DNA of 38,664 nucleotides from Candidatus Falkowbacteria bacterium (GCA_037130845.1 JBAXSE010000013.1:1-38664), one strand, 5' to 3'; positions 14,020 to 38,616 are shown, counted from the stretch's first letter. Program-made: numbers and translations. Notes: a model not told the origin generated them from the sequence alone.

Positions 14020-14094
14020 GGACGCGTAGCTCAGTTGGCCCAGAGCAATGGATTGTGGCTCCATTTGTCACGGGTTCGATTCCCGTCGCGTCCA
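14020..14094 (+). tRNA. tRNA-His (anticodon GUG), discriminator A73, no genomically encoded G-1, no encoded CCA
   Basis: Hand-folded cloverleaf. Acceptor GGACGCG (14020-26) pairs with CGCGTCC (14087-93). U8A9. D arm GCTC/AGTTGGCCCA/GAGC. Anticodon arm ATGGA / TT-GTG-GC / TCCAT with GTG at 14055-57. 5-nt variable loop. T arm ACGGG/TTCGATT/CCCGT. Position -1 is T14019 and position 73 is A14094. Confidence 0.9.
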
Positions 14095-19574: not shown

Positions 19575-20393
19575 CTAGAAAGTGATAGGGTTATTATTAA
19601 AAGGCTCGACTTTGCAAAAGTCTGGAATTAAGTTTTCTTGGCTTCCTGCCTCTTGTATCCATCCGTTGCCCAGGCCCAGCTTGAGCTGATACTGGTGGAC
19701 GATGGCGAACTCTTCGGCTGTCACGGCGCGACCCAGTTCGGGGAAGCGGTCGGCCTGGTAAAGCGGGGAGTATTGGTTCATCAGGCTGATGTGCAGCTCC
19801 AAGTCGATGGCGGCCAGGGTGTCTAGCACGCCGAAGCTGTTGGTCAGCTGGTCGGGCAAGACCATGTGCCGGACTATCAGTCCCTTGGCTGCTTTATTAT
19901 TTACAATTTGCAGATTGCCGACTTGTCGGTACATCTCGGCGATAGCTGTTTGGGCGGTGGCAAAATAATCTTTGATGCCTGAGTATTTGAAGGCCAGATC
20001 GTCGTGGCTGTATTTGAAATCGGGGAGGTAGATGTCGATCAAGCCGTCCATCTCTTTGATGATGTCCGGCGATTCGTAGCCGTTGGAGTTCCAGGCGATC
20101 GGAATTTTTAGCCCTTGTCCTTTGGCGCTGATAATCGCTTCTTTGATGCACTGGTGCCAGATTGTGGGAGTGACTAGGTCGATGTTGGCTGCGCCGAGTA
20201 TTTGCAATTCTAGCATCATGCCAGCTAGTTCTTGGCTGTCAAAAAGCCGGCCCAGATACTGTTGCGAAATCTGGAAATTCTGGCAGAAGACGCAGTGCAG
20301 ATTGCAGCCGCTAAAGAAGATGCCGCCGGCCGGCAGCAGGGGTGGTTCTTCGCCCGTGTGCAGGCCATGCCAGGCGATTTTGGTTTGGGTCAT
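19575..20393 (-). CDS. Radical SAM enzyme, PflX-like (putative glycyl-radical-activating-enzyme family)
   Basis: FFSGCNLHCVFCQNFQIS carries the CxxxCxxC 4Fe-4S/SAM motif. 272 aa, collinear with COG1313-type proteins as I remember them. Confidence 0.75.
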   Translation of the reverse strand: MTQTKIAWHGLHTGEEPPLLPAGGIFFSGCNLHCVFCQNFQISQQYLGRLFDSQELAGMMLELQILGAANIDLVTPTIWHQCIKEAIISAKGQGLKIPIAWNSNGYESPDIIKEMDGLIDIYLPDFKYSHDDLAFKYSGIKDYFATAQTAIAEMYRQVGNLQIVNNKAAKGLIVRHMVLPDQLTNSFGVLDTLAAIDLELHISLMNQYSPLYQADRFPELGRAVTAEEFAIVHQYQLKLGLGNGWIQEAGSQENLIPDFCKVEPFNNNPITF

Positions 20394-20482
20394 AGATTGG
20401 TAGTATAATCAGCAATTTGACTCCTGGCAAGCTGTTTGCTATGGTCAAGAGGATAGTTGTTTCAAATATTAGGAATTATCGT

Positions 20483-21016
20483 ATGAAAACATTGTCATCG
20501 ATCGTCAAGATTGTTCACAAGAACATCTGTGCCAGCCCGGAAGTCTATAAGGCTTTCCAATTGCGGGTGTCCGAAGGCGCGCCGACGCGGGAGCAAAATC
20601 CGATGTCTCATTTTTCTGTCTATTTTTTGCCCTATAATCCGTACAACAAAAAAGTATTCATTACGCATCACAAGAAATCCGGCCTGTGGCTATCGCCCGG
20701 CGGACATGTGGACGAAGGCGAAACTTTGTGGCAGACGGTTAATCGCGAGATCAAAGAGGAGTTGGGCGTGGCTGATTTTTTCAAGCTTGAGCCTAAGCCT
20801 TTCTTGCTGACCATCACGCCGGTGGCCAATGCCGCTCATGCCTGCAAAACGCATTATGACGTTTGGTATCTGGTGATTACTGACGGCCATGATTTTAGTA
20901 TCGATCCCAGAGAGTTCCATGCCACGCAGTGGATGGCTATCGACGATGCCAAAAAGATTGTCACCGATCCGCCTAATCTGCTGGCCTTGGACCGGGTGGC
21001 ACGACTGGCCAAATAA
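20483..21016 (+). CDS. Nudix hydrolase
   Basis: Canonical Nudix box GGHVDEGETLWQTVNREIKEELGV. Start ATG20483 is preferred (AGGAA 7 nt upstream); in-frame alternatives at 20417 (TTG) and 20441. Confidence 0.8.
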   Translation: MKTLSSIVKIVHKNICASPEVYKAFQLRVSEGAPTREQNPMSHFSVYFLPYNPYNKKVFITHHKKSGLWLSPGGHVDEGETLWQTVNREIKEELGVADFFKLEPKPFLLTITPVANAAHACKTHYDVWYLVITDGHDFSIDPREFHATQWMAIDDAKKIVTDPPNLLALDRVARLAK

Positions 21017-24069: not shown

Positions 24070-26706
24070 ATGAATGTTGCACAATTAAACACAGAAAAGC
24101 GTCTTGCTACGGCTATTATGCCTTGGAAAGACATCAGCATCGGTTCGGCCGCTATTGTTTCTAGCACTATCGCTAATAGCGGTATTTTTACTTCTACCCA
24201 AACCTTTAAGATTCAAGTTCCGCTTAGTGTTAACGAAAGCGTAACCAGGGATTATGACGGTTATCGCTTGCCAATGGACAAGCTGGACGAAGACGGAGTA
24301 ATCCGAGTCGGCGAGAGCGTCGCCTTGGGTGATGTGCTGGTTGCCATGATTGAATATGATCCACGAGAGTATCAGCCGGAAGAAAAATTGCTCAAAGCAA
24401 TTTTTGGCGACGGTGCTACTAACGTGACCGATCGTTCGGTTACCATGTCTTTCCCTGATCCTGCTATAGTCTATAGCGTCGAAAAAAAACTCGAAGGCAA
24501 AAAAAAGCTGGTGACTGTTTATCTGGCCTTTAAACGTAAACTACGTTTGGGTGATATTCTGGTCGATAGCAAAGGTAACCAAGCAGTTGTCTCGGCTGTT
24601 GTTGCTGATAATGAAATGCCTTATCTGAAAAGCTCGCAAACCAGAGCTCAAATAGTGGTTACGCCGCTCACTGATTGCGGCGAAACGATGGTAGATCATT
24701 TGGATAAACAAAGGCTGGTTGTGGTATATGATACCGAAGATCCCAAGTTTATCCTGATAGCGCCGCCGCTTGATAGGCCAAGCAAAAATAAGAAGTGGTT
24801 ATGCAAAGATGAAGAAGCGCGTTTTGGGGCTATCGCTTGGAAAAAATTAGAACTATTGTCCGGTCAAAAGAATATCGGTTATGGCGTTCAAAGTAGATTG
24901 CGCAACGATGCCCAATTGGTGGATGGCATCAAGATCCGCCAAGAATTTATCACAAGCCTGTTGCATTACAATCTGCCGGCTGTAGCCAGAGAATTTTTGA
25001 CCGTCAAGTCTGACGATGCCAAAGGCTACGGCGATACTGTACAAGCTATTATTAATGGATGGTCTTTGCCCGCAGCGGCTGCTCCGGCTTCGCTAAAGCG
25101 CTATGAAGCGACGATCAAGGCAATGGCCTTGACTATCGGAGTCGATAACGGCAGTAGGCAAGTCGGCTTACTTGATGGCTATAATTATCCCAACCAGGAT
25201 TTGCCAGGTATTGGCGTTTCTTTGTGGGTAACTCCGCAATCAGAGATTTTGGCTCAGTCCCACGGTGAATTGACCGGTGTTGATTATATGGATGATGCTA
25301 TCAAGCAGGCTCAAGGGAAAAAGAAAACAGACAAGATAGAAGTCGGTTTGTTCAGCCAACGCATTTTCGGCCCTCTACGGGATTATGAATGCGCTTGCGG
25401 TAAATACAAGCGAGTCCGCTATAGCGGCATCGTCTGCGATCGTTGCGGTGTCTTGGTAGCGCAAAGCTCTGTGCGCAAAGAACGTTTCGGCCATATCAAC
25501 CTGGCTTTGCCTTGCGTGCATCCTTTGTTCGAAAAAGCAGTTGCCGAGTTATATAAGTCGATCGATTACACGAACACTCCGCAATATTTTGAAGAGCTGA
25601 TCGAAAAAAACTTTGATCTAGAAAAAGCCGATTATCTTTTTGAATGTTCCGAGATAATGAAAAAGTTATCGTTGCCCGAACAGCAGATTCTTAATGTCAT
25701 CCCGGTCATGCCGGCCGGTTGGCGTTCCGATTGGATGTCTTATACTAGCAGTTGGACAATGGATTTAAATTATCTATATAGCAGATTAATGACTCGTAAC
25801 AATCGATTGACTCGATTAATCGACATCAAAGCTCCTTGGATGATTATCTCCAATGAATATCGAATGCTACAAGAGGCTTTGTCTGAATTATTTAATTGCA
25901 CTCATTTGGGGAGTGAGACTCCGCCTGTCGGATTGATCCATAGCCTGCAAGCAGCCGGTCGCAATCTTTATGACAAAAAGGTTAGTTATTCCGGACGTGC
26001 GCTGGTTATCCCAGATGACCGCCTGGCAATCGACGAATGCGTTTTGCCTAGAACTCTGGCAGTCAGATTGTTTGAGCCTTTTGTGCTTCAGCGCTTGATG
26101 GCATCGCCGCCGGAAACTCCTTGCGACCCGATTTGGGACGATTCTTATCCGGATCTGCCTCCTATCTTGGCAGATGTAGTAGTAGATATTGCCGCTGGCA
26201 ATAAGACTACAGTCGATCTAAAGAAGATTGATGAAGATGAAGCTAGAGCTTATCCGGGCTATACCTACAAGACGGCTAGTGGAATGGTTAAAAATAACCA
26301 CCCCGAAGCATTGGAAAAGCTGGAAGCGATTGTTGGCGATAGGGTTGTCCTATTGAGCTCTGTCAGTCAGATAGAATTTGCCGGTTTTTGTCCACGTTTA
26401 AGTAACGAAGAAGTCATCAGACTTCATCCGCAGGCTATTAAGCTTCTTGGTATTTCTCTGGGTAAGGCTGGCAAGGCGTTAGTCTATCTACCCTTGTCTG
26501 ATGATGCTCAAGCGGAAGTCAAAGGTGTTATGTGCGGCCAAGAATGGTCGTATGTTCCTCAGACTCCGAGCGTTGGATATAGCTCTGTTCTTAATAGTAA
26601 TCTCAAGCATCTTGTTTCTAATCCTTGGTTGGATCAACCGGAGCCGGAAACCTGCAAATGGTTGCTATCCTTAAATGATCGATTTTTGCTCAATTATAGC
26701 AAATAG
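24070..26706 (+). CDS. RNA polymerase beta (C-terminal third) / beta-prime (N-terminal third) fusion-like protein lacking catalytic motifs (pseudo-RNAP)
   Basis: 878-aa ORF, AAGGAA SD. Beta-like blocks: PEEKLLKAIFGDGATNVTDRSV, VYLAFKRKLRLGDILVDSKGNQAVVS..EMPY, FLTVKSDD. Beta-prime-like blocks: GLFSQRIFGPLRDYECACGKYKRVRYSGIVCDRCGV, VIPVMPAGWR, LYSRLMTRNNRLTRLIDIKAP..ISNEYRMLQEAL, VSYSGRALVI, LPRTLAVRLFEPF. There is no NADFDGD; the aligned segment is LGISLGKAGKALVYLPL. Confidence 0.85.
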   Translation: MNVAQLNTEKRLATAIMPWKDISIGSAAIVSSTIANSGIFTSTQTFKIQVPLSVNESVTRDYDGYRLPMDKLDEDGVIRVGESVALGDVLVAMIEYDPREYQPEEKLLKAIFGDGATNVTDRSVTMSFPDPAIVYSVEKKLEGKKKLVTVYLAFKRKLRLGDILVDSKGNQAVVSAVVADNEMPYLKSSQTRAQIVVTPLTDCGETMVDHLDKQRLVVVYDTEDPKFILIAPPLDRPSKNKKWLCKDEEARFGAIAWKKLELLSGQKNIGYGVQSRLRNDAQLVDGIKIRQEFITSLLHYNLPAVAREFLTVKSDDAKGYGDTVQAIINGWSLPAAAAPASLKRYEATIKAMALTIGVDNGSRQVGLLDGYNYPNQDLPGIGVSLWVTPQSEILAQSHGELTGVDYMDDAIKQAQGKKKTDKIEVGLFSQRIFGPLRDYECACGKYKRVRYSGIVCDRCGVLVAQSSVRKERFGHINLALPCVHPLFEKAVAELYKSIDYTNTPQYFEELIEKNFDLEKADYLFECSEIMKKLSLPEQQILNVIPVMPAGWRSDWMSYTSSWTMDLNYLYSRLMTRNNRLTRLIDIKAPWMIISNEYRMLQEALSELFNCTHLGSETPPVGLIHSLQAAGRNLYDKKVSYSGRALVIPDDRLAIDECVLPRTLAVRLFEPFVLQRLMASPPETPCDPIWDDSYPDLPPILADVVVDIAAGNKTTVDLKKIDEDEARAYPGYTYKTASGMVKNNHPEALEKLEAIVGDRVVLLSSVSQIEFAGFCPRLSNEEVIRLHPQAIKLLGISLGKAGKALVYLPLSDDAQAEVKGVMCGQEWSYVPQTPSVGYSSVLNSNLKHLVSNPWLDQPEPETCKWLLSLNDRFLLNYSK

Positions 26707-30503: not shown

Positions 30504-32876
30504 ATGTTATTAAGCATTGTCCTACAGTACATCGTTCCGATAATCGTTGCGTTCATCGTATTGATTGTCGTTATGAATTCATTCGCGAACGCCAAAGGCG
30601 ATCAGATTATTTTGTTAGAACGCCGTTGGTTCGGCAAGTCTATGCCGGACGGCCGTACAGTTGCTCTTCATAATGAAGTCGGCGTCCAGGCCAGAGTTCT
30701 GGGTCCAGGTTTCCATTGGTTGATTCCATTTATTTATAAGACAACCAAGATGCCTTTTACCACCATCCATAAGAATAAGGTCGGTGTCGTGCGTGCCATT
30801 ACTGGTGCCACTTTGCCGAGCGATAAGATTATGGCCAAGACGGTAGCTTGTGACTATTTCCAAGATGGCGAAGCCTTCTTGATGAATGGCGGACAAAAAG
30901 GTCCGCAGATTACCATACTGCCAGACGGTGAATACAAGATTAATCCGCATTTGTTCAATGTGGTAGAAGTTGAAGCCATCATGATTGATGATGATCATAT
31001 TGCAGTCGTTGAAGCCATTGCCGGTTTACCGGTCACTAGGCCCGGAGGAAACTTTGGATCGCCAGTACCCTGTGATAATTTCCAGGATGGCGAAGCTTTC
31101 TTGGCAAACGGCGGACAGAAAGGCCCGCAGGTTGCTTTTATAGAGCCAGGGTTCTATAGGATTAATACGATCATGTTTGACGTAGCGCTCATGCCTATTA
31201 CCGTAATACCAGGCGGGCATGTTGGTTTGGTTTTAGCGACTGATGGTGCCAGGATTCCTGAAGGCCGTTTGTTGGCTAACAAAGTAGAAGGACATGATAA
31301 TTTCTATAATGGCGAAGCTTTCTTGGCAAAAGGCGGCGAAAGAGGCCGTCAAATCGATACTTTGCCTCCGGGAAGATATAGGCTTAATCCAAGACTCTTT
31401 GAAATCAAAGAAAATGCTATTATCCCTTGGACGAACATTTCGGCCGATGAGGTCGGAATTGTGACAGTCAATGAAGGTAGGCCGATTATCGACGCTACCA
31501 AGATAGCTGCTGAAGAACTACCCATGGGTACGCACAATAATTTCCAGGATCCGAACGCCTTCTTGAAGGCTGGCGGACAAAAAGGTTTGCAGATTCCAGT
31601 GCTACGCGCCGGAAACTATGCAATCAATCCCTGGTTCTGTACTGTGGAAAAAGTACCGATGGTCCAGGTGGCAATCGGATTCTGCGGCGTCGTCACTAGC
31701 TATGTCGGTGAAGAGGGCAAAGATCTGACGGAAGATGATGTCAATGCCAAGATTGTCGAGAACGGCAAGAAGGGTATTTGGTCCGAACCGTTACAGCCGG
31801 GCAAACACCCCTTGAATACCAAGATCTGTAAAGTGGACATTGTGCCCACGACCCAGATATTGCTTAATTGGGCGGATAACCGTTCCAGTGCTCATGAGCT
31901 TGATACTAACTTGAAGACCATTACCTTACGTACGTCAGACGCCTTTAATGTTAATATGGATGTCTCCGTGATTATCCATATCCCAATGAAGAATGCGCCG
32001 AAGGTTATCGCCAATCTTGGATCGGTCAAGAATATGATTTCTCAGGTTCTTGAACCGGCTATCTCGTCGCACTTCCGTAATGCTGCTCAGTATATCCAGG
32101 CATTGGAATTATATACCAAGCGTAAAGAATTACAGGATACTGCTAAGGTTCATATCGATAGCGTACTTAAGGTGCACCATATCGATTCCAAGGAAACTTT
32201 GATTGCTGATGTTGTCCTGCCGCTCGAATTAACCAAGACGGTTACCGACAGGCAGATTGCCGAACAGGAAAAGAAAACCTTCTTTACTCAGAAGGAGGCA
32301 CAGGATGAAAGACGTACTCTCGAAAACGCCAAGGCCCAAGCAGATATGCAGCCTGAGGTAGTTAAATCCGAGAGGAATGTCGAAATCGCCAAGAACATCG
32401 CCGAAGGTAAGGTCAAGGAAGCGGAAGGTATGAAATCCGCCGCTATCTTGAAGGCTACCGGTGATGCCGAATCAGTCAAACTGAAAGCCAGAGCTGACGC
32501 CGAAGCAGTCACTGTGACCGCCGAAGCGAACGCCAAGAAGGTCAAGGTCACGGCTGAAGCCGATTCTGAGGCTATCATGAAAGTTGGAACATCCGAAGCT
32601 GATATCATATTAGCCAAAGGTAAATCAACTGCCGAGTCCTACAAGCTGGAAGTCGATGCCATGGGCAAAGAGGTCTTTGGACAGATCCGTGTAGTCAGAG
32701 AAATCGCAGCCAGCAAGCTGAAATTCATTCCTGAAAACTTAATTATCGGCGGTGGCAGCGGTGCTGGCAGCAGTTCGATGGAAAACATGATGGGCATTGC
32801 TTTGATGGAAAAGCTATCCGGCAGAGCATTTAGTGCTACCGAAAAAGCTGTTGAAAAAACAGAAGTAAAAGTTTAA
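30504..32876 (+). CDS. Membrane-anchored SPFH/band-7 flotillin-like protein with a repeat-expanded N-terminal region
   Basis: N-terminal TM LLSIVLQYIVPIIVAFIVLIVVM. SPFH-like core (LRTSDAFNVNMDVSVIIHI...). C-terminal E/A/K-rich flotillin-type coiled coil (AEGKVKEAEGMKSAAILKATGDAESVKLKARADAEAV...). Confidence 0.75.
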   Translation: MLLSIVLQYIVPIIVAFIVLIVVMNSFANAKGDQIILLERRWFGKSMPDGRTVALHNEVGVQARVLGPGFHWLIPFIYKTTKMPFTTIHKNKVGVVRAITGATLPSDKIMAKTVACDYFQDGEAFLMNGGQKGPQITILPDGEYKINPHLFNVVEVEAIMIDDDHIAVVEAIAGLPVTRPGGNFGSPVPCDNFQDGEAFLANGGQKGPQVAFIEPGFYRINTIMFDVALMPITVIPGGHVGLVLATDGARIPEGRLLANKVEGHDNFYNGEAFLAKGGERGRQIDTLPPGRYRLNPRLFEIKENAIIPWTNISADEVGIVTVNEGRPIIDATKIAAEELPMGTHNNFQDPNAFLKAGGQKGLQIPVLRAGNYAINPWFCTVEKVPMVQVAIGFCGVVTSYVGEEGKDLTEDDVNAKIVENGKKGIWSEPLQPGKHPLNTKICKVDIVPTTQILLNWADNRSSAHELDTNLKTITLRTSDAFNVNMDVSVIIHIPMKNAPKVIANLGSVKNMISQVLEPAISSHFRNAAQYIQALELYTKRKELQDTAKVHIDSVLKVHHIDSKETLIADVVLPLELTKTVTDRQIAEQEKKTFFTQKEAQDERRTLENAKAQADMQPEVVKSERNVEIAKNIAEGKVKEAEGMKSAAILKATGDAESVKLKARADAEAVTVTAEANAKKVKVTAEADSEAIMKVGTSEADIILAKGKSTAESYKLEVDAMGKEVFGQIRVVREIAASKLKFIPENLIIGGGSGAGSSSMENMMGIALMEKLSGRAFSATEKAVEKTEVKV
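30765..31670 (+). repeat. Four clear tandem protein modules of 74-80 aa, plus degenerate copies on either side, within the SPFH gene
   Basis: Motif [CH]D[YN]F[QY][DN]GEAFL.[NK]GG[QE][KR]G.Q...L.PG.Y.[IL]N recurs with Phe codons at nt 30858, 31080, 31302 and 31542. The similarity is visible at nt level (tttccaggatggcgaagctttcttggcaaa...). Confidence 0.8.
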
Positions 32877-32967: not shown

Positions 32968-32996
32968 TTGACGGATTTTTGAAAGGGGGATAATAT
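32968..32996 (+). promoter_or_regulatory. Sigma70-type promoter upstream of the NAD cluster
   Basis: TTGACG (32968-73), 17-nt spacer, TAATAT (32991-96). A second candidate is TTGACA (33028-33)-17-TTAGAT (33051-56). Confidence 0.45.
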
Positions 32997-33014
32997 AGTG
33001 TTATATTTACACTA
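32996..33014. promoter_or_regulatory. Candidate operator: inverted repeat TAGTGT-N7-ACACTA abutting the -10
   Basis: tagtgttatatttacacta with perfect 6-bp arms, starting at the last base of the -10 hexamer. Confidence 0.3.
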
Positions 33015-33129: not shown

Positions 33130-33807
33130 ATGGAAAGGTCTAATAGAGTAATTATCCCGGGTTTAGGGACTATTCTCAGGCTTAAGATCGCTAGCATGCA
33201 TGTCGATGCGGAAAACGGCTTTGCGCCCCTGTGTCCGTTGGAACTGCCGGTACCGGACGGCCAGAATATTGTACACGAGCTGATAGCTCAAAATAACTTC
33301 GCCCGCTATCTGGTAGGCAGCAAAGAAGGACACTCGGACCATCCCCAATGGGCGGCCACCGAGAGCGAGCCGGCCTTTACGCCGATGACGGGCTATCCCA
33401 ATATGAATCGGCGTTGGAATGTGCATTGCGCTATCGGTACCTATGGCGGACAATTGCTGGACGGACTGCCGCCGATTAGCGGCTATGATTTTATGGTCTG
33501 GAAGGGCATTGAAGATGATATGCATCCCTATGGGGCTTGCTATCACGACCTGGCCAAGAAGCTGTCTACCGGGCTGATAGAATGGCTGACCTGCCAGAGA
33601 ATCTCGACAGTGATAGTGGGTGGTCTGGCGACTGATTACTGCGTGCTGGAAACAGTCTTGGAATTATTAGAGGCTGGTTTTGAAGTAGTAGTCAATCTGG
33701 GAGCTTGCCGCGGTGTCGCAACAGACACGACAGACACAGCTATCAAAAAGATGATTAAGCACGGCGCGATTATTATCCAGTCCAGCCAAGAACTAACGCT
33801 TGTCTAA
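33130..33807 (+). CDS. pncA: Nicotinamidase (isochorismatase-fold, PncA)
   Basis: ATG33130 lies 4 nt after GGAGGA. Catalytic Asp region VDAENGF, Lys in MVWKG, Cys in VGGLATDYCV. His-rich metal-site segment EGHSDHPQW. Confidence 0.8.
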   Translation: MERSNRVIIPGLGTILRLKIASMHVDAENGFAPLCPLELPVPDGQNIVHELIAQNNFARYLVGSKEGHSDHPQWAATESEPAFTPMTGYPNMNRRWNVHCAIGTYGGQLLDGLPPISGYDFMVWKGIEDDMHPYGACYHDLAKKLSTGLIEWLTCQRISTVIVGGLATDYCVLETVLELLEAGFEVVVNLGACRGVATDTTDTAIKKMIKHGAIIIQSSQELTLV

Positions 33808-33947
33808 GGGCACGATCCATCGCAAAGTCAAACAGGGGAAAGCCAGCCTTTCCCCCTACTCAAGTGGCGCTGAAAGTTTCGGCGCCAGCTGTCTAGGCAG
33901 TTCTTTAAAATTGAATAATCAAATTGTTATATTTATCAGGAGTAGAC

Positions 33948-35222
33948 ATGTATTTACCATCAAGTTTGTTCAGCTACAAGCAGGACAAAGGCATCATCCA
34001 AACGCTCATGGATGTGGACTTCTATAAGTTCACTATGGGGCAATTGGCCTTTAAGTATTATCGCAATGTGCAAGTGACCTTCAAGTTCACCAATCGCAAT
34101 AAGAATGTTAAGCTGGCCAAGATTATCGATATCGCCCGTTTGCGTGAAGAGCTGGACCATTGCCGTACCCTAAGCTTCAAGAATTCGGAGATCCATTATT
34201 TGCGCGGTACTAATGAGTATCAGCATAGGATGTTCGAGGAAGATTACTTGCAGTTCTTGGCGACCTTGCGTTTGCCAGATTATGAGCTGGAATTTGTGGG
34301 AGATGAAATTTGGCTGACCTTTACGGGCTTTTGGCCGGAAGTGACATTGTGGGAAACCCTCGCCTTGTCGATTATCAACGAGCTCTATGTTCGTGCCATG
34401 TTAGGCAAGGATACTAGCGCTTGGGAACGCAACTACGCTGTCGGAGTCACCAGGTTGTATGAGAAGATTGAAAGCTTGCGCGAATATCCGGAATTAGTCT
34501 TCACTGATTTCTGTACCCGTCGCCGTTTTAACGGCCCGTGGCAGGGATACTGCATCGAGACGACCGTGCGAGAATTACCCGGGCAGTTCCTGGGCACTTC
34601 CAACGTGATGTTCTCTCAGCAATTGGCAGACCACAATTTCGTCCCTATGGGCACATCCGCTCATGAACGTGATATGGTGTTGGCTGCTTTGCAGTTCAAT
34701 AGCGATGTGGGCATCCTTAATAGCCTCTGGCAGAGCGCGGATGAATGGTACAATCAATATGGCGAAGGCCTGTCTATCTTTTTGCCCGATACCTTCGGCA
34801 CCGATGCCTTTTTCGCCCAATTCGGGTCGGCTCGAGCCAAAAAATGGAAGGGCTCGCGGCAAGATTCCGCTGATCCATATGCCTACGGCAGAAAGTTGAT
34901 CAAGTATTATGAAGGCTATGAGATTGATCCACGAAATAAAATGTGCATCTTTAGCGATGGCTTGACGCACGAATTGATGATTTGTTTGCATATATATTTC
35001 CATCGGCAGCTCAAAGATGGTTATGGCTACGGCACGCATTTCGGCAACGACTTGCTGGTTCCGCCTTTGCCCATTGTGGTCAAAGTCGACAGCGTCAACG
35101 GCAATCCGGCTGTCAAGCTTTCTGACAATCTGGCCAAAGGCATGGGATTGCAGACTGAACAAGAGCGTTACAAAAGGATATTTGGCTACACGCGTGATTT
35201 CAGACAAGAATGTGTTGTATAA
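33948..35222 (+). CDS. pncB: Nicotinate phosphoribosyltransferase
   Basis: ATG33948 lies 5 nt after CAGGAG. N-terminal DVDFYKFTMGQ, FTDFCTRRR, MGTSAHERDM (phospho-His loop), SDGL. Length 424 aa. Confidence 0.85.
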   Translation: MYLPSSLFSYKQDKGIIQTLMDVDFYKFTMGQLAFKYYRNVQVTFKFTNRNKNVKLAKIIDIARLREELDHCRTLSFKNSEIHYLRGTNEYQHRMFEEDYLQFLATLRLPDYELEFVGDEIWLTFTGFWPEVTLWETLALSIINELYVRAMLGKDTSAWERNYAVGVTRLYEKIESLREYPELVFTDFCTRRRFNGPWQGYCIETTVRELPGQFLGTSNVMFSQQLADHNFVPMGTSAHERDMVLAALQFNSDVGILNSLWQSADEWYNQYGEGLSIFLPDTFGTDAFFAQFGSARAKKWKGSRQDSADPYAYGRKLIKYYEGYEIDPRNKMCIFSDGLTHELMICLHIYFHRQLKDGYGYGTHFGNDLLVPPLPIVVKVDSVNGNPAVKLSDNLAKGMGLQTEQERYKRIFGYTRDFRQECVV

Positions 35223-35240
35223 TTTAACTCGGAGTTTAGA

Positions 35241-36149
35241 ATGATAGTAGAAAGAAGGAAGTTCTATGGTCTGAACGGAGTGATCCAGGAAGACCGTGAG
35301 CGGTTTAAGCATATTCCTTTGTTGGAATTCTCTAAGGAAGTTATGAATAGTTTTTCTCTTGCCAGTACAAAGATACGCGACAAGGATGATCTAGAGAAAG
35401 CGGTAGCTGATATTTATTGCAAATGGACGGCAGGCTATGGTTATTATGGCGATGTCATCAATGTTAGCTGTTTTATTGCTGACGACCATTGTTATCTGCA
35501 AGTAAATTATATCGCTCGTTTGGCTTTTCCCAAGCCGAATATGGCCTCCGACCTGGTGCCTATCGTGATTGATAATCGCGGCTATGCCTTTCTGATTGCC
35601 ATTACCCGCAAATACAATCCCGGTAAAGGCGGACTTGCCTTGATAGGCGGCTTCCGAAGCGTGATCAAGAATCGCATGGAAACGTCAGTTGAAGCAGCAA
35701 TGCGAGAGGCTAGTGAAGAAGCAGTCGGTCTTGATCTAGAGTATATAGTTAATTGTCACGATGGGATATATTCTAATATAACTCCCCAAAACAGTCAGGC
35801 GATACTAGTGCTGGGCCTGCGTCATGAGATTGTCGGCGGCATCTGGCAGCAGGTGGTGAATCTGGAGTGGTTGGGTACTTATCGTACTGCTCCGGATCGA
35901 GATGAATCATACATCACTCGGCAACGAGTCGATATAACTGATGCTTATGTCCTGCCGATTCGAGTTGATCGGCTGTTGACCAAAGCAGAAATCGCCACTT
36001 GGTTTAGACCGGGCGATGATGCTGAAACGGTCGAAATTATCCGGATTGACGATGGCTACGAGCCTGCTTTTGTCTTTAACCATCATAGTGTCATCTTCAA
36101 GGAAGCTTGGAAAAAGATCGCGAATGAAGTGGCCGTTCTCTATATGTAA
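35241..36149 (+). CDS. Nudix-fold protein with a ~100-aa N-terminal extension and a near-canonical Nudix box; function unclear
   Basis: GGAG SD. LALIGGFRSVIKNRMETSVEAAMREASEEAVGL has E-x7-REASEE intact but the G-to-E spacing is lengthened. C-terminal AFVFNHHSVIFKEAW resembles the LAFDH..I motif of ADP-ribose-type Nudix/NrtR proteins. Confidence 0.6.
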   Translation: MIVERRKFYGLNGVIQEDRERFKHIPLLEFSKEVMNSFSLASTKIRDKDDLEKAVADIYCKWTAGYGYYGDVINVSCFIADDHCYLQVNYIARLAFPKPNMASDLVPIVIDNRGYAFLIAITRKYNPGKGGLALIGGFRSVIKNRMETSVEAAMREASEEAVGLDLEYIVNCHDGIYSNITPQNSQAILVLGLRHEIVGGIWQQVVNLEWLGTYRTAPDRDESYITRQRVDITDAYVLPIRVDRLLTKAEIATWFRPGDDAETVEIIRIDDGYEPAFVFNHHSVIFKEAWKKIANEVAVLYM

Positions 36150-36264
36150 GCAAATTGATTATTCACAGTCGACGGCTAACACGACCGTCGACTATTTATC
36201 TAAGCGATCAAACTCTTGATCCTTTGGATAAGTAAAGTACTTTGAAAATTTATAAGGAACAATC

Positions 36265-37002
36265 ATGAAATATTTAACCGTTTTTTCGGACAGTCTGGCT
36301 GCACAAGATCTAGCCCGCCAAGTCAAGGAAAAGCATTTGCAGGTAACCGATGATCCGCAACAAGCGGATGCGATTATCGTTGGTGGTGGAGATGGCACTA
36401 TGTTGCACGCAATTCATCAGTATTGGCAATTAAAGGTACCTTTTTTAGGAATTAATTGTGGTTCGGTCGGTTTTTTATTAAACCCTGTCGAAACGGAGAG
36501 GGATCTTTTGTTGTTATTGCATCATTTCCAAGAGGTTAAATTGAACTTAATGGAAGTGCATATAGATGCTGAAAGCGATAGCTTTACCTTGCATGCCTTC
36601 AATGACGTTTATCTAAACGTCAAACCGGGCTCCATTTGTTATGGCACGATTCAAGGCGAGCATTATCCCAGACAAAAATTTCGTGGAGACGGCCTAATAG
36701 TAGCTACCGGCCAAGGTTCAACGGCCTACAATCGTAATGCCGGCGGGTCGATATTACCTTTGCAAAATGACCTGTTGGCTATTACCGGTATTTGTACTTA
36801 TGATACGCTACGCGATGTGGTGTCTCAACAGGATCTGATTATTACTATCACTCGTGGTGAGGTGACGGCCAATGCTGACAATCAGTCGGTAGCCGGTGTC
36901 AGGTCAATCGTTATCCGTCCGGGCTTTAGCACTGTCGCCTTGGGTTTCCGCCCCGACTATAATTTCGAAAGCAAAAGATATTCATTCTATAACCAATTCT
37001 AG
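36265..37002 (+). CDS. nadK: NAD+ kinase
   Basis: DAIIVGGGDGTML (GGDG motif), NDVYL, GDGLIVATGQGSTAYNRNAGGSI. Confidence 0.88.
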   Translation: MKYLTVFSDSLAAQDLARQVKEKHLQVTDDPQQADAIIVGGGDGTMLHAIHQYWQLKVPFLGINCGSVGFLLNPVETERDLLLLLHHFQEVKLNLMEVHIDAESDSFTLHAFNDVYLNVKPGSICYGTIQGEHYPRQKFRGDGLIVATGQGSTAYNRNAGGSILPLQNDLLAITGICTYDTLRDVVSQQDLIITITRGEVTANADNQSVAGVRSIVIRPGFSTVALGFRPDYNFESKRYSFYNQF

Positions 37003-37012
37003 GAGTGCAGTA

Positions 37013-37954
37013 ATGTATAAATTAACACAGCAACAGTTGGCTGACGTAGCAAAATACGCCAGCTCTAACCTCTACGCCTATTGCGTGAAAAATAATATCC
37101 ACCATCTGGTGGTTGGTTCTTCCGGCGGTTTGGACAGCGCGGTTACGCTTAAACTAGCTCAATTAGCCTGCAACTTAGCCGAAAAAGATGGCTATGAATT
37201 AAAGAGCATCGGCATGGTCTTGCCTTGTTTCTCCAGCCGTAGGTCGATTGATTTGGGTCGGCTAGCTATTAGGTCTGCCGGTGCTGAAGTAATCGAAATC
37301 AATCTGGATAAAGCTTTTAGTGCTTTGATGAATAATGCAGTCGAGGAAGGCATCGGGTGGCAGTTGGATGACATCGAACCTGATGTAACGGCTGCCGACT
37401 GGCGGCAAAGGCGAATCATCGCTCAGGGCAATATCAAAGCTCGTCTGCGTATGATCCATGTCTATCAGGTAGCCGGCTTGCTCAAGGGCATAGTGCTCTC
37501 GACCGATAATCTGAGCGAACTATGGATGGGCTTTTGGACCCTGCATGGGGACGTAGGCGACTACGGCATGATTCAGAATCTGCTCAAAGGCTTGGAGCTC
37601 TATGACTTGGCACGCTACTTGGGCGTACCGAAAGAGATTATCGCGGCTAAGCCGGACGACGGACTAGGCATAGGCAAAGGGGATGAAGATCAGTTGCATG
37701 CGCCTTATGACAAGATTGATGAAGTGATGATTACGTTCTATCAACAGAACGAACCGCATATCATAAACAGACGACACTCGGCAGTCCTGCCGGCTGTCGA
37801 GGGAGTGAAGCCGGAAGTAGTCTCAGAATTAGTGGCTCGCTACCAAGCGACCAATTATAAGCGTTGGGGGACGGTCAATCTGACCCGCAGCGACTTGCAT
37901 CTGCCGCCAATCAACAATATCAATCTGCGAGGCGACAGTGAAAACCAAGCTTGA
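37013..37954 (+). CDS. nadE: NH3-dependent NAD+ synthetase
   Basis: ATG37013 lies 7 nt after AGGAG and 10 nt after the nadK stop. PP-loop VVGSSGGLDSAV; GNIKARLRM; STDNLSELWMGFWTLHGD; KPDDGL. Confidence 0.85.
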   Translation: MYKLTQQQLADVAKYASSNLYAYCVKNNIHHLVVGSSGGLDSAVTLKLAQLACNLAEKDGYELKSIGMVLPCFSSRRSIDLGRLAIRSAGAEVIEINLDKAFSALMNNAVEEGIGWQLDDIEPDVTAADWRQRRIIAQGNIKARLRMIHVYQVAGLLKGIVLSTDNLSELWMGFWTLHGDVGDYGMIQNLLKGLELYDLARYLGVPKEIIAAKPDDGLGIGKGDEDQLHAPYDKIDEVMITFYQQNEPHIINRRHSAVLPAVEGVKPEVVSELVARYQATNYKRWGTVNLTRSDLHLPPINNINLRGDSENQA

Positions 37955-38579
37955 TTTCATCCAAGGCTTCAAGGCCTTAACCGAACTGGCATTGGCCGCT
38001 GCCAAGCCGGTAGTAGTATTAATTGCCGGAGCCAGTGGTTCCGGCAAGAGTCATCTGGCTAAGCTGTTGTCCGCCAAGCTGCTGCAATGCGGCATTTTGA
38101 CTACCGTTATTGGACAGGATGATTATTTCCGCGATTGTTTCGATCCCGATTTGCCGCTCGATAGCCAAGGACGGGGAATCTTCGATCTGCCGGCTTCCTA
38201 TCTCGATTTGGAACTGGCTAGCGACATCCGCATGTTGCTTAGCGGCTTTACGGTCCAGGGTCCGCTTTATGACAAGAAAGTCAATCTGCGGTCGCTAACC
38301 AAGAAAACGCTGGAAGCTGCGCCTGTGGTTATTGTGGAAGGTCTCTATGCCATTTTGGCGTTGGCTGATAATGATGATATGCCTATCATCAAGATTTATG
38401 TGGAGGCCGACTCGGATATTTGTTTGCGGTCGCGAATTAGGCGTGATACCGTGGCTTTTGGCATCAGCGCCGAAAAGGTAGAGAAATTCTACAACGAACG
38501 GGTATTGCCTTATGCCAAGGAGGCCTTGACCGACCAGGCCAAGCTGGCTGACTTGATTATCGTTAATGATCACCTATAA
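37938..38579 (+). CDS. Uridine kinase/PRK-family P-loop nucleoside kinase (possible nicotinamide riboside kinase)
   Basis: GTG37938 overlaps the nadE stop by 17 nt. P-loop IAGASGSGKSHLAK, GQDDYF, PLYD, IVEGLYA, YVEADSDICLRSRIRRD. Confidence 0.7.
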   Translation: MKTKLDFIQGFKALTELALAAAKPVVVLIAGASGSGKSHLAKLLSAKLLQCGILTTVIGQDDYFRDCFDPDLPLDSQGRGIFDLPASYLDLELASDIRMLLSGFTVQGPLYDKKVNLRSLTKKTLEAAPVVIVEGLYAILALADNDDMPIIKIYVEADSDICLRSRIRRDTVAFGISAEKVEKFYNERVLPYAKEALTDQAKLADLIIVNDHL

Positions 38580-38586
38580 ATTATAG

Positions 38587-38616
38587 TCTGCCCATGTAAA
38601 ATGGGCAGATTTTTTA
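38587..38616 (+). terminator. Rho-independent terminator of the NAD cluster
   Basis: 9-bp stem tctgcccat (38587-95) / atgggcaga (38601-09), followed by ttttttatt. Confidence 0.75.

What the first reader, a model, noticed from the sequence alone, without database searches (positions are those of the whole stretch)
33130..38579. Compact NAD salvage/maturation cluster that lacks nadD and carries a divergent Nudix protein and a Udk-like kinase instead
Six co-directional, tightly spaced genes make up the cluster: pncA, pncB, a Nudix-like gene, nadK, nadE and a Udk/PRK-family kinase. The gaps after the Nudix-like gene are 115 nt and 10 nt, followed by a 17-nt overlap.

The Preiss-Handler route runs nicotinamide -> nicotinate (PncA) -> NaMN (PncB) -> NaAD (NadD) -> NAD (NadE) -> NADP (NadK). 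Every step is present except the NaMN adenylyltransferase.

No protein in the cluster has the (H/T)xGH nucleotidyltransferase motif. The gene that follows pncB is a 302-aa Nudix-fold protein with a novel ~100-aa N-terminus. Either nadD/nadM is encoded elsewhere, which is the conservative reading, or the adenylylation step is handled unconventionally.

The arrangement also places a potential NAD(H)/ADP-ribose-cleaving enzyme inside a NAD-making operon.
Basis: partly seen in the sequence, partly recalled or inferred. Interest (0 to 1): 0.5.

Follow-up and report, generated by a model that had tools for sequence, protein, structure and literature searches.

The report
NAD salvage operon missing nadD
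This is a real six-gene NAD salvage operon from a tiny-genome (Patescibacteria) bacterium; its odd Nudix protein and uridine-kinase-like gene belong to two uncharacterised families that sit in NAD gene clusters of other microbes next to the normal nadD, so neither replaces nadD, which is most likely encoded elsewhere in this genome.

Summary
Window 33130-38579 holds six co-directional genes: pncA, pncB, a 302-aa Nudix-fold protein (X), nadK, nadE and a Udk/PRK-like kinase. The spacings are as reported, with a promoter-like site upstream and a terminator-like hairpin just after the kinase. No NadD, NadM or NadR signature occurs in any frame of the 38.7-kb window.

The unconventional reading is not supported. 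X belongs to a family of about 130 clusters of roughly 300-aa proteins. Its Nudix domain groups with the ADP-ribose-binding clade (NrtR, NadM-Nudix, NUDT9), and the catalytic glutamates are invariant. Its N-terminal 100 aa is a separate small domain with no nucleotidyltransferase features.

All seven non-CPR bacterial contexts I retrieved place X in an NAD cluster that also encodes NadD. Some also carry prs and an ADP-ribosylglycohydrolase. The closest operon reads NrtR-PnuC-NadR-pncA-pncB-X-nadK-nadE-nadD.

The kinase subfamily recurs directly after nadD in three other clusters that show no NadR. It has lost the residues Udk uses to read uridine.

Best reading: X is an ADP-ribose-type pyrophosphatase that recycles ribose-5-phosphate. 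The kinase is a candidate nicotinamide/nicotinate riboside kinase. nadD was dropped from this operon and lies elsewhere. That last point could not be checked with these tools.

The parts
32979..33007 (+). Sigma-70-like promoter candidate (TTGAAA-17-TATATT with an extended TG) in the 253-nt gap upstream of pncA. A GGAGG ribosome-binding site lies at about 33121.
   Evidence: Consensus scan and the sequence itself. This is a consensus match only.
33130..33807 (+). pncA-like nicotinamidase, isochorismatase family, 225 aa
   Evidence: PF00857 E 1.3e-15. The best NCBIfam match is NF008623 nicotinamidase/pyrazinamidase, E 5e-22, below its cut-off. The 'VDAENGF', 'WKG' and 'ATDYCV' motifs are visible in the translation. 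NCBI MEI6378811.
33948..35222 (+). pncB nicotinate phosphoribosyltransferase, 424 aa
   Evidence: PF17767 plus PF04095. TIGR01514 scores 280 bits, above its 269.55 cut-off. NCBI MEI6378812.
35241..36149 (+). X: a 302-aa protein of an uncharacterised family. It has an N-terminal alpha/beta domain (about residues 1-97) followed by an ADP-ribose-type Nudix domain with an insertion of about 50 aa. The Nudix box is G137-x9-E147-x7-R155-E156-x2-E159-E160-x2-G163-L164.
36265..37002 (+). nadK NAD kinase, short form, 245 aa
   Evidence: PF01513 plus PF20143. The best NCBIfam match is NF003406 NAD kinase, E 9e-37. NCBI MEI6378814.
37013..37954 (+). nadE single-domain (ammonia-type) NAD synthetase, 313 aa
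   Evidence: PF02540 E 4e-37. TIGR00552 scores 116.6 bits, above its 63.65 cut-off. NCBI MEI6378815.
37938..38579 (+). Udk/PRK-family P-loop kinase, 213 aa, GTG start, overlapping nadE by 17 nt. It belongs to a subfamily linked to NAD clusters and is a candidate nicotinamide/nicotinate riboside kinase.
   Evidence: PF00485 E 7e-18. The Udk equivalog scores 103.6 bits, below its 180 cut-off. The best PDB match is Thermus uridine-cytidine kinase, E 3e-20. Recurrence in NAD clusters and altered specificity residues.
38585..38611 (+). Terminator-like hairpin (11-bp stem followed by TTTTATT) starting 6 nt after the kinase stop codon. It is the probable end of the operon.
   Evidence: This is a consensus match only.

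Best explanation
The region is one operon for NAD salvage, recycling and maturation in a Patescibacteria (CPR) bacterium.

Steps supported by family assignment:
- PncA: nicotinamide to nicotinate.
- PncB: nicotinate plus PRPP to NaMN.
- NadE: NaAD to NAD.
- NadK: NAD to NADP.

Inferred role of X: X is a catalytically competent Nudix hydrolase of the ADP-ribose-binding clade. It most likely cleaves ADP-ribose, the product of NAD consumption, or a close ADP-ribosyl nucleotide, to AMP plus ribose-5-phosphate. That returns the ribose-phosphate to PRPP for PncB. This is the job done by the Nudix half of NadM-Nudix in other NAD clusters. X's private N-terminal domain is an accessory domain, not an adenylyltransferase.

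Inferred role of the kinase: the Udk-like kinase is the counterpart of the NadR kinase domain or of eukaryotic Nrk1. It would phosphorylate nicotinamide riboside or nicotinate riboside to NMN or NaMN.

Inferred fate of nadD: the NaMN adenylyltransferase step is not encoded in the operon. In homologous operons nadD follows nadE, and in some the kinase follows nadD. This lineage has therefore lost nadD from that slot, and the enzyme is most probably encoded elsewhere in the genome.
For: (1) Gene identities.

(2) X's Nudix domain:
- The family profile hits 2yyh, 2fml and 2qjt at E 3e-10 to 4e-7.
- Across 92 family members, E156 and E160 are 92/92, E159 is E or D in 85/92, and G136-G137 are 92/92. 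This contrasts with the degenerate Nudix boxes that PMC2330246 reports for many of the non-catalytic NrtR regulators.

(3) Context of the X family in other bacteria:
- L010/L042 and L067: NrtR-PnuC-NadR-pncA-pncB-X-nadK-nadE-nadD.
- L069: NrtR-PnuC-NadR-pncA'-nadD-ADP-ribosylglycohydrolase-NAPRTase-u301-X-nadK-nadE.
- L068: ADP-ribosylglycohydrolase-pncB-u307-X-prs-X'-(NadE-NadD fusion)-PRK kinase.
- L072: pncA'-pncB-prs-X-(NadE-NadD fusion)-PRK kinase.
- L070 and L071: nadD directly upstream of X.

The link from ADP-ribose through ribose-5-phosphate and prs to NAD synthesis is the rationale given for such clusters in PMC2330246.

(4) The block is homologous between the window and L010: PncA 58%, PncB 63%, NadK 55%, NadE 52% and X 36% identity.

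(5) The kinase:
- It is 32-38% identical to the kinases that directly follow nadD in L013, L068 and L072.
- It is absent from the clusters that carry PnuC plus NadR.
- All five NAD-cluster kinases replace the Udk 'RGR' motif and the specificity His (here Asn116), and lack the Udk C-terminal helix. They keep the P-loop, the catalytic 'DD' and the 'EG' motif.
- All score 97-114 bits against the Udk equivalog, whose cut-off is 180.
- Eukaryotic NR kinases are ~200-aa relatives of uridine-cytidine kinase, with essential Asp36 and Glu98 (PMC1994991).

(6) Operon limits: a promoter-like site at 32979-33007 and a terminator-like hairpin at 38585-38611.

(7) PncB, PncA and NadE are 93%, 85% and 81% identical between the two CPR relatives. 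The pathway is therefore maintained, which implies that an adenylyltransferase exists somewhere.
Against: - No biochemical data exist for X or for the kinase subfamily. The substrates are inferred from fold clade and neighbourhood only.
- The window protein itself fails the Pfam NUDIX threshold (12.7 bits against 21.1). Its Nudix box has non-canonical spacing, with 9 rather than 5 residues between G and E and one extra residue before the final G.
- In Asgard archaea the X family sits beside a tRNA_bind gene rather than NAD genes, so the family may not have a single function.
- The kinase is still closest to uridine kinases in every library, and it could simply be a pyrimidine salvage enzyme.
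- nadD was not found. Only 38.7 kb of this genome and 21 kb of the relative's 361-kb scaffold could be read.
- A word-indexed search with the L010-type NadD returned no CPR protein.
Confidence: 0.6

Rival explanations
1. The lineage has no canonical NadD, NadM or NadR. The NaMN to NaAD step is carried out by a protein of this operon: either X, through its extra N-terminal domain, or the P-loop kinase that now occupies the slot nadD holds in homologous operons.
For: - nadD is absent from the operon and from the whole 38.7-kb window.
- It is also absent from the 21 kb read around the relative's operon.
- In the closest homologous operon, nadD overlaps the end of nadE exactly where the kinase does here.
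- The L010-type NadD has no detectable CPR homologue in a word-indexed search.
Against: - X co-occurs with NadD in all seven non-CPR bacterial contexts.
- The kinase subfamily co-occurs with NadD in L013, L068 and L072.
- X has no HxGH or SxTxxR signature conserved across its family and no Rossmann nucleotidyltransferase fold.
- The kinase keeps the phosphotransfer motifs of nucleoside kinases.
- Most of the genome was not examined.
Confidence: 0.04
2. X is a Nudix hydrolase, but its physiological substrate is not free ADP-ribose. Candidates are NADH or NAD(P)H, NaAD, ADP-ribose-1''-phosphate or its cyclic form, and NAD-capped or otherwise modified RNA or tRNA.
For: - The conserved catalytic glutamates show hydrolase competence but do not define a substrate.
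- Asgard homologues always follow a tRNA_bind gene.
- The large insertion in the Nudix domain and the extra N-terminal domain could reshape the substrate pocket.
Against: - The closest structural and sequence relatives are the ADP-ribose-binding Nudix domains.
- Bacterial neighbours include prs and an ADP-ribosylglycohydrolase, which make sense for ADP-ribose recycling.
Confidence: 0.2
3. X is a non-catalytic ADP-ribose sensor or regulatory subunit, an NrtR-like effector domain without a DNA-binding domain, that modulates neighbouring enzymes.
For: - The top fold hits are NrtR and AraR regulators.
- The window operon has no NrtR gene, whereas the closest homologous operons do.
Against: - X has no winged-helix domain. 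PF21906 and PF19368 hit the true NrtR of L010 but not X.
- The Nudix glutamates are invariant across 92 members, unlike those of many NrtR regulators (PMC2330246).
- X coexists with NrtR in L010, L067 and L069.
Confidence: 0.08
4. The last gene is an ordinary uridine/cytidine kinase for pyrimidine salvage that merely rides on the NAD operon.
For: - The best matches in Pfam, NCBIfam and PDB are uridine kinases.
- CPR bacteria depend on nucleoside salvage (own knowledge).
Against: - The same subfamily appears directly after nadD in three other, distantly related NAD clusters.
- Generic Udk homologues from 28 GTDB genomes have no NAD genes nearby.
- The subfamily has lost the 'RGR' motif and the specificity His of Udk.
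- It scores far below the Udk equivalog cut-offs.
Confidence: 0.25

Closest known systems
Nudix (ADP-ribose pyrophosphatase) domain of bifunctional NadM-Nudix (Synechocystis slr0787, Francisella NadM; PDB 2qjo, 2qjt) and the phage NadM-Nudix/NatV type
   Same: - Shared sequence landmarks: 'KP..A.D' entry strand, 'R...PG.G..AL.GG', 'GDDA', and a C-terminal '(D/H)H..I' helix.
- Embedded in NAD salvage clusters.
   Different: - X has no NMN adenylyltransferase domain.
- The apparent BLAST extension into the NMNAT C-terminus of phage MD18 NadM is not supported by the family profile, which scores no better than 2000 shuffles.
- X has its own ~97-aa N-terminal domain and a ~50-aa insertion in the Nudix domain.
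NrtR (Nudix-related transcriptional regulator of NAD metabolism; PDB 3gz5, 3gz8, 2fml)
   Same: - Best structural match to the Nudix domain.
- Same genomic theme, with NAD salvage genes, prs and ADP-ribose.
   Different: - No C-terminal winged-helix DNA-binding domain.
- The catalytic glutamates are conserved.
- X coexists with a true NrtR in L010, L067 and L069.
NUDT9 / TRPM2 NUDT9-H ADP-ribose pyrophosphatases
   Same: - Two-part architecture, with an N-terminal cap of about 100 aa or more followed by a Nudix core.
- ADP-ribose specificity of the clade.
   Different: - Sequence similarity is marginal (E 0.07).
- Equivalence of the N-terminal domains was not shown.
Eukaryotic nicotinamide riboside kinases Nrk1/Nrk2, and the kinase domain of bacterial NadR
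   Same: - The window kinase is a ~200-aa P-loop metabolite kinase related to uridine-cytidine kinase, as Nrk1 is (PMC1994991).
- It keeps the 'DD' catalytic and 'EG' carboxylate motifs.
- It sits in NAD clusters where NadR's kinase domain is absent.
   Different: - No direct sequence match to Nrk1 or to NadR AAA_28 was obtained.
- Its closest relatives are bacterial Udk proteins.
- The activity is untested.
Bacterial uridine kinase Udk / Thermus uridine-cytidine kinase (PDB 3asy, 3w8r)
   Same: Same fold and family (PF00485), about 30% identity, E 3e-20.
   Different: - Fails the curated Udk equivalog cut-offs (103.6 bits against 180; 92.5 against 220.3).
- Asn replaces the specificity His/Tyr.
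- 'RGR' is replaced by F/Y-G/Q-I/V.
- The C-terminal helix is missing.
- It is linked to nadD/nadE rather than to pyrimidine genes.

Membership tests
Nudix hydrolase superfamily (X) | Nudix alpha/beta/alpha fold | tested here: met
   [not shown]
Nudix hydrolase superfamily (X) | Nudix box GX5EX7REUXEEXGU with the catalytic Glu residues | tested here: inconclusive
   The REx2EE core is present: R155, E156, E159, E160. E156 and E160 are invariant in 92/92 family members. The spacing is non-canonical, with G-x9-E and one extra residue before the final G. Pfam PF00293 scores 12.7 bits, below its 21.1 cut-off, for the window protein. 29 of 92 members hit it at E < 0.01.
ADP-ribose pyrophosphatase (NadM-Nudix / NudF-type function) (X) | Closest relatives are ADP-ribose-binding Nudix domains | tested here: met
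   3gz8 (NrtR with ADP-ribose), 2qjt (NadM-Nudix), 2fml, NUDT9 and TRPM2 are the top hits.
ADP-ribose pyrophosphatase (NadM-Nudix / NudF-type function) (X) | Proline about 15-16 residues downstream of the Nudix box (Bessman-type ADPRase signature; recalled from memory) | tested here: inconclusive
   The family alignment has a majority Pro (60/92) about 16 residues after the box. In the window protein, P182 lies 18 residues after L164. The rule itself comes from my own knowledge and was not re-checked.
ADP-ribose pyrophosphatase (NadM-Nudix / NudF-type function) (X) | Mg-dependent hydrolysis of ADP-ribose to AMP plus ribose-5-phosphate | not testable with these tools
   This needs an enzyme assay.
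NMN/NaMN adenylyltransferase (NadD / NadM / NadR-AT) (X, or any gene of the window) | (H/T)xGH motif at the N-terminus of a Rossmann nucleotidyltransferase fold | tested here: not met
   [not shown]
NMN/NaMN adenylyltransferase (NadD / NadM / NadR-AT) (X, or any gene of the window) | Second signature ISxTxxR / SxxxxR | tested here: not met
   'ASTKIR' in the window protein looks similar, but it is not conserved in the family. P0003 has 'DTMIN' and others have none. The N-terminal profile against NadM scores no better than shuffles.
NrtR transcriptional regulator (X) | C-terminal winged-helix DNA-binding domain (PF21906) | tested here: not met
   X has no such hit, and the model ends in the Nudix C-terminal helix. 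The L010 NrtR scores E 5e-24 against PF21906.
Uridine kinase Udk (last gene) | Curated equivalog score (NF004018 at 180 bits or more; TIGR00235 at 220.3 or more) | tested here: not met
   The scores are 103.6 and 92.5 bits. The homologous NAD-cluster kinases score 97-114 bits.
Uridine kinase Udk (last gene) | Pyrimidine-recognition residues (specificity His/Tyr after 'YD', and the 'RGR' motif in the lid) | tested here: not met
   His/Tyr is replaced by Asn116. 'RGR' is replaced by 'FGI', and by Y-Q-I, Y-G-V or Y-K-I in the homologues. The roles of these residues are taken from my own knowledge of UCK2 and ttCK.
Nicotinamide riboside kinase (functional class; last gene) | P-loop, catalytic Asp (Nrk1 Asp36) and Glu (Nrk1 Glu98) equivalents | tested here: met
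   GASGSGKS, Q-D61-D62-Y and V-E134-G are present and conserved in the subfamily. Residue roles are from PMC1994991.
Nicotinamide riboside kinase (functional class; last gene) | Phosphorylation of nicotinamide or nicotinate riboside | not testable with these tools
   This needs an assay or complementation. Support comes only from context: the kinase follows nadD or nadE in four independent clusters and is absent where NadR is present.
Preiss-Handler pathway operon | All five steps encoded: PncA, PncB, NadD, NadE (plus NadK) | tested here: not met
   NadD is missing from the operon and the window. It is present in homologous operons L010, L043, L044, L067 and L069.

The most novel reading that the evidence does not exclude
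The Falkowbacteria-type lineage has no NadD, NadM or NadR anywhere in its genome. The NaMN (or NMN) adenylylation step is carried out by a non-canonical enzyme of this operon. That enzyme would be either the P-loop Udk-like protein that took over nadD's slot after nadE, or X acting through its N-terminal domain, which weakly resembles an ATP-grasp subdomain. This would be a new, non-homologous NMN/NaMN adenylyltransferase.
Probability: 0.04. Interest if true: 0.85.

Novelty: new variant of a known kind. Interest (0 to 1): 0.38.

Why it matters
The headline anomaly, an NAD operon without nadD, is most likely only a matter of gene placement.

The follow-up does expose two uncharacterised protein families that are consistent members of NAD salvage clusters across distant prokaryotes:
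- A ~300-aa Nudix family with its own N-terminal domain. It comprises about 130 clusters at 50% identity and has no Pfam or NCBIfam model. NCBI annotates the window's copy as 'hypothetical'.
- A Udk-like kinase subfamily. NCBI annotates the window's copy as 'adenylyl-sulfate kinase'.

If the first is an ADP-ribose pyrophosphatase and the second a prokaryotic riboside kinase of the Nrk1 type, two recurrent gaps in NAD pathway reconstructions would be filled. This matters most for reduced-genome CPR bacteria that must scavenge vitamins. Both predictions can be tested with simple enzyme assays.

Tried and rejected
1. 'X is an N-terminally truncated NadM-Nudix that keeps the C-terminal half of the NMNAT domain.'
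- A BLASTP/tblastn alignment to Phaeobacter phage MD18 NadM-Nudix ran from X residue 16 to 161, against NadM 116-262, and included 'ASTKIR' against 'ATTIR'.

2. Looking for the missing N-terminal half of NadM, or any NadD or NadR, as a separate ORF. Motif scans and tblastn in the window and in L001-L004 were negative.

3. Finding nadD elsewhere in the genome.
- This was not possible. The GTDB representative collection holds neither this species nor a close relative.
- A search with the L010-type NadD gave only 7 hits, none from CPR bacteria.
- Only 10 kb on each side of X could be read on the relative's 361-kb scaffold.

4. Family-wide locus retrieval with the broad alignments A2 and A3. They were too diverse for pattern design. 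A4 found nothing in GTDB.

5. The afdb50 fold library was unavailable.

6. Generic Udk homologues from GTDB (L014-L041) served as a control. None has NAD genes nearby.

7. Rfam found no riboswitch in the operon leader, only a tRNA at 14020-14094.

8. A phage origin was considered. There is no DNA match to phages, and the window carries housekeeping genes such as HisRS, histidine ammonia-lyase, a DEAD helicase and malic enzyme.

9. A NARP1-like route from ADP-ribose to NAD without an adenylyltransferase was considered. The window has no Prs-like gene, and its PncB passes the curated NAPRTase equivalog.

10. Literature searches for NAD metabolism or nadD in CPR/Patescibacteria and for bacterial Udk-like riboside kinases returned nothing relevant.

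Full report
**Source and setting.**

The window is nearly the whole of a 39,153-bp contig of an NCBI metagenome-assembled genome labelled 'Candidatus Falkowbacteria bacterium'. This phylum belongs to the Patescibacteria/Parcubacteria group, that is, the candidate phyla radiation.

The rest of the window encodes ordinary bacterial genes: histidyl-tRNA synthetase, histidine ammonia-lyase, malic enzyme, a DEAD-box helicase, a PAS/GAF hybrid histidine kinase, an ABC-F ATPase and cell-wall hydrolases. It has no DNA match among phages. This is a cellular locus, not a viral one.

**Observation check.**

- pncA 33130-33807
- pncB 33948-35222
- X 35241-36149
- nadK 36265-37002
- nadE 37013-37954
- a Udk/PRK-family kinase 37938-38579

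The 115-nt gap, the 10-nt gap and the 17-nt overlap are all correct. The chosen start codons reproduce exactly the proteins deposited at NCBI.

Family assignments hold for five of the genes. PncB passes the curated NAPRTase equivalog, and NadE passes TIGR00552. PncA and NadK match best to nicotinamidase and NAD kinase. The last gene is in the PRK/Udk family.

A sigma-70-like promoter candidate (32979-33007) and a GGAGG site precede pncA. An 11-bp hairpin followed by a T-run lies 6 nt after the kinase stop. The six genes therefore look like one transcription unit that ends before the window does. Rfam finds no riboswitch.

**The missing adenylyltransferase.**

No ORF of the window carries a cytidylyltransferase-like domain. 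No PxHxGH or GxFxP...H motif occurs in a credible reading frame. tblastn with a phage NadM-Nudix, a NadD and a NadR finds nothing beyond Nudix-box matches. The factual core of the finding, that the cluster lacks nadD, is correct.

**What X is.**

X has no Pfam family above threshold (NUDIX E 0.13). An exhaustive HMMER search nevertheless finds about 130 clusters (at 50% identity) of proteins, nearly all 290-330 aa long and aligning end to end.

A profile of 92 of them matches the Nudix domains of Aquifex 2yyh, the NrtR-like 2fml and Francisella NadM-Nudix 2qjt. An AlphaFold model built on this alignment is confident (pLDDT 92).
- Foldseek places it with 2fml, NrtR bound to ADP-ribose, AraR, NadM-Nudix and NUDT9/TRPM2.

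Across the family, the metal-binding glutamates of the Nudix box are invariant or nearly so:
- E156: 92/92
- E160: 92/92
- E159: E or D in 85/92
- The GG pair, R229 and an HH pair in the last helix are also invariant.

X is therefore a probable active hydrolase of the ADP-ribose-binding Nudix clade, not a decayed one. Many NrtR regulators, in contrast, have degenerate Nudix boxes (PMC2330246). X also lacks the winged-helix domain that defines NrtR.

**The N-terminal ~97 residues.**

A pairwise alignment to a phage NadM-Nudix seemed to extend into the C-terminal half of the NMN adenylyltransferase domain and to include an 'STxIR' motif. I tested this idea and reject it:
- The family's N-terminal profile scores that NadM no better than shuffled sequences.
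- The motif is not conserved.

**Comparative context of X. This is the decisive evidence.**

A 65%-identical homologue lies in an identical six-gene operon on a 360,932-bp groundwater scaffold.

The next relatives (31-36% identity to the window's X) lie in the following contexts:
- L010, L042 and L067: NrtR-PnuC-NadR-pncA-pncB-X-nadK-nadE-nadD.
- L069: NrtR-PnuC-NadR-pncA'-nadD-ADP-ribosylglycohydrolase-NAPRTase-unknown-X-nadK-nadE.
- L068 and L072: (ADP-ribosylglycohydrolase)-pncB-...-X-prs-(X')-[NadE-NadD fusion]-PRK kinase.
- L070 and L071: nadD immediately upstream of X.

So X accompanies a bona fide NadD in seven of seven non-CPR bacterial contexts. The L010 NadD matches best to TIGR00482. 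X cannot be that enzyme's replacement.

Its recurring partners are pncB, prs, an ADP-ribosylglycohydrolase and NrtR. These are the ones expected for recycling ADP-ribose to ribose-5-phosphate and PRPP, the logic set out for NAD regulons in PMC2330246.

The window's block is clearly homologous to the L010 block: PncA 58%, PncB 63%, NadK 55%, NadE 52% and X 36% identity. Other related NadE-anchored clusters (L043, L044) also include nadD.

Against that background, the CPR operon is the exception that has lost nadD. It is not a different solution to the pathway.

**The kinase.**

NCBI calls it adenylyl-sulfate kinase. By every library it is closest to uridine kinases. It scores only 103.6 bits against the Udk equivalog, whose cut-off is 180.

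Kinases 32-38% identical to it lie directly downstream of nadD (or of the NadE-NadD fusion) in L013, L068 and L072. None of these clusters shows a NadR or PnuC. The clusters that do carry PnuC and NadR have no such kinase.

As a control, 28 generic Udk homologues from GTDB genomes have no NAD genes nearby.

An alignment shows that all five NAD-cluster kinases keep the P-loop, the catalytic 'DD' and the 'EG' motif. They replace the Udk specificity His/Tyr with Asn, replace the lid 'RGR' with F/Y-G/Q/K-I/V, and lack the Udk C-terminal helix.

Eukaryotic nicotinamide riboside kinases are ~200-aa relatives of uridine-cytidine kinase with essential Asp and Glu at the equivalent positions (PMC1994991). 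I therefore infer, with moderate confidence, a nicotinamide/nicotinate riboside kinase. It would be a functional analogue of the NadR kinase domain. A plain pyrimidine kinase remains a live rival.

**How the operon most likely works.**

Shown by family membership:
- Nicotinamide is deamidated by PncA.
- Nicotinate is converted to NaMN by PncB.
- NaAD is amidated by NadE.
- NAD is phosphorylated by NadK.

Inferred:
- X hydrolyses the ADP-ribose released by NAD-consuming enzymes to AMP plus ribose-5-phosphate.
- The kinase feeds scavenged ribosides in as NMN or NaMN.
- The NaMN to NaAD step is supplied by an adenylyltransferase encoded elsewhere.

Strong conservation of PncB (93%), PncA (85%) and NadE (81%) between the two CPR relatives argues that the pathway is in use. 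That in turn requires such an enzyme.

I could not verify its presence. Only this contig and 21 kb of the relative's scaffold were readable. The species is not in the GTDB representative set, and a word-indexed search with the L010-type NadD returned just seven proteins, none from CPR bacteria.

**Comparison with known systems, and novelty.**

The arrangement is a variant of the NrtR-type NAD salvage and recycling clusters already known from comparative genomics. The 'NAD-cleaving enzyme inside an NAD-making operon' is not paradoxical, because ADP-ribose pyrophosphatases are established members of such clusters.

What is new:
- The Nudix component belongs to an undescribed family with its own N-terminal domain and no model in Pfam or NCBIfam.
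- The kinase belongs to a Udk-derived subfamily tied to nadD/nadE.

Both are new variants of known kinds. A truly novel adenylyltransferase is not excluded, but I give it about 4%.

**Verdict.**

Interest is moderate to low for the headline anomaly and moderate for the two uncharacterised NAD-linked families, which are directly testable.

Noticed in passing
window 24070-26706 (+): An 878-aa ORF combines Pfam RNA_pol_Rpb2_6 (aa 10-199) with RNA_pol_Rpb1_1 (aa 528-613) and a weak Rpb1_2 match, all in one short chain. It looks like a fused, miniature beta/beta'-type two-barrel RNA polymerase-like protein and is far smaller than RpoB plus RpoC.
   Followed up: no
window 30504-32876 (+): A 790-aa SPFH/Band-7 protein lies just upstream of the operon. 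Its N-terminal half carries four copies of a ~30-aa motif, 'D(N/Y)FQDGEAFLxNGGQKGPQ...G.Y.INP'.
   Followed up: no
window 19575-21016; L001 17797-20212: A canonical NUDIX gene (20417-21016, PF00293 E 2e-16) lies beside a radical-SAM gene (19575-20393, minus strand). The same pair lies a few kb downstream of the NAD operon in the relative's scaffold, so the two genomes are rearranged relative to each other.
   Followed up: no
L068 2611-3534; L069 7077-7982: A conserved 301-307-aa gene sits directly upstream of X in two NAD clusters. The two copies are 50% identical, and L068's copy has no Pfam or NCBIfam hit (L069's has none on record). L068 also carries two X paralogues (35% identical) flanking prs.
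   Followed up: partly
L068 6735-9197; L072 4413-6869; L013 2-1057: These loci encode an ~820-aa fusion of CN_hydrolase, NAD_synthase and CTP_transf_like domains, that is, a glutamine-dependent NadE fused to NadD. It is followed by the Udk-like kinase. In L068 and L072 a Ser/Thr protein kinase gene comes next.
   Followed up: partly
L006, L008, L009 (Lokiarchaeota and related contigs): Distant X-family members in Asgard archaea always follow a 111-127-aa tRNA_bind (PF01588) gene and are not in NAD clusters. In L009 a PRK-family kinase lies just upstream and a SIR2_2-TPR protein just downstream.
   Followed up: partly
[not shown]
   Followed up: partly
window 37938-38579: NCBI's pipeline names the Udk-like kinase 'adenylyl-sulfate kinase', and X 'hypothetical protein'. 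The kinase name is probably a misannotation, given its much stronger Udk/PRK matches.
   Followed up: yes
window 14020-14094 (+): A single tRNA gene is the only Rfam match in the window.
   Followed up: no
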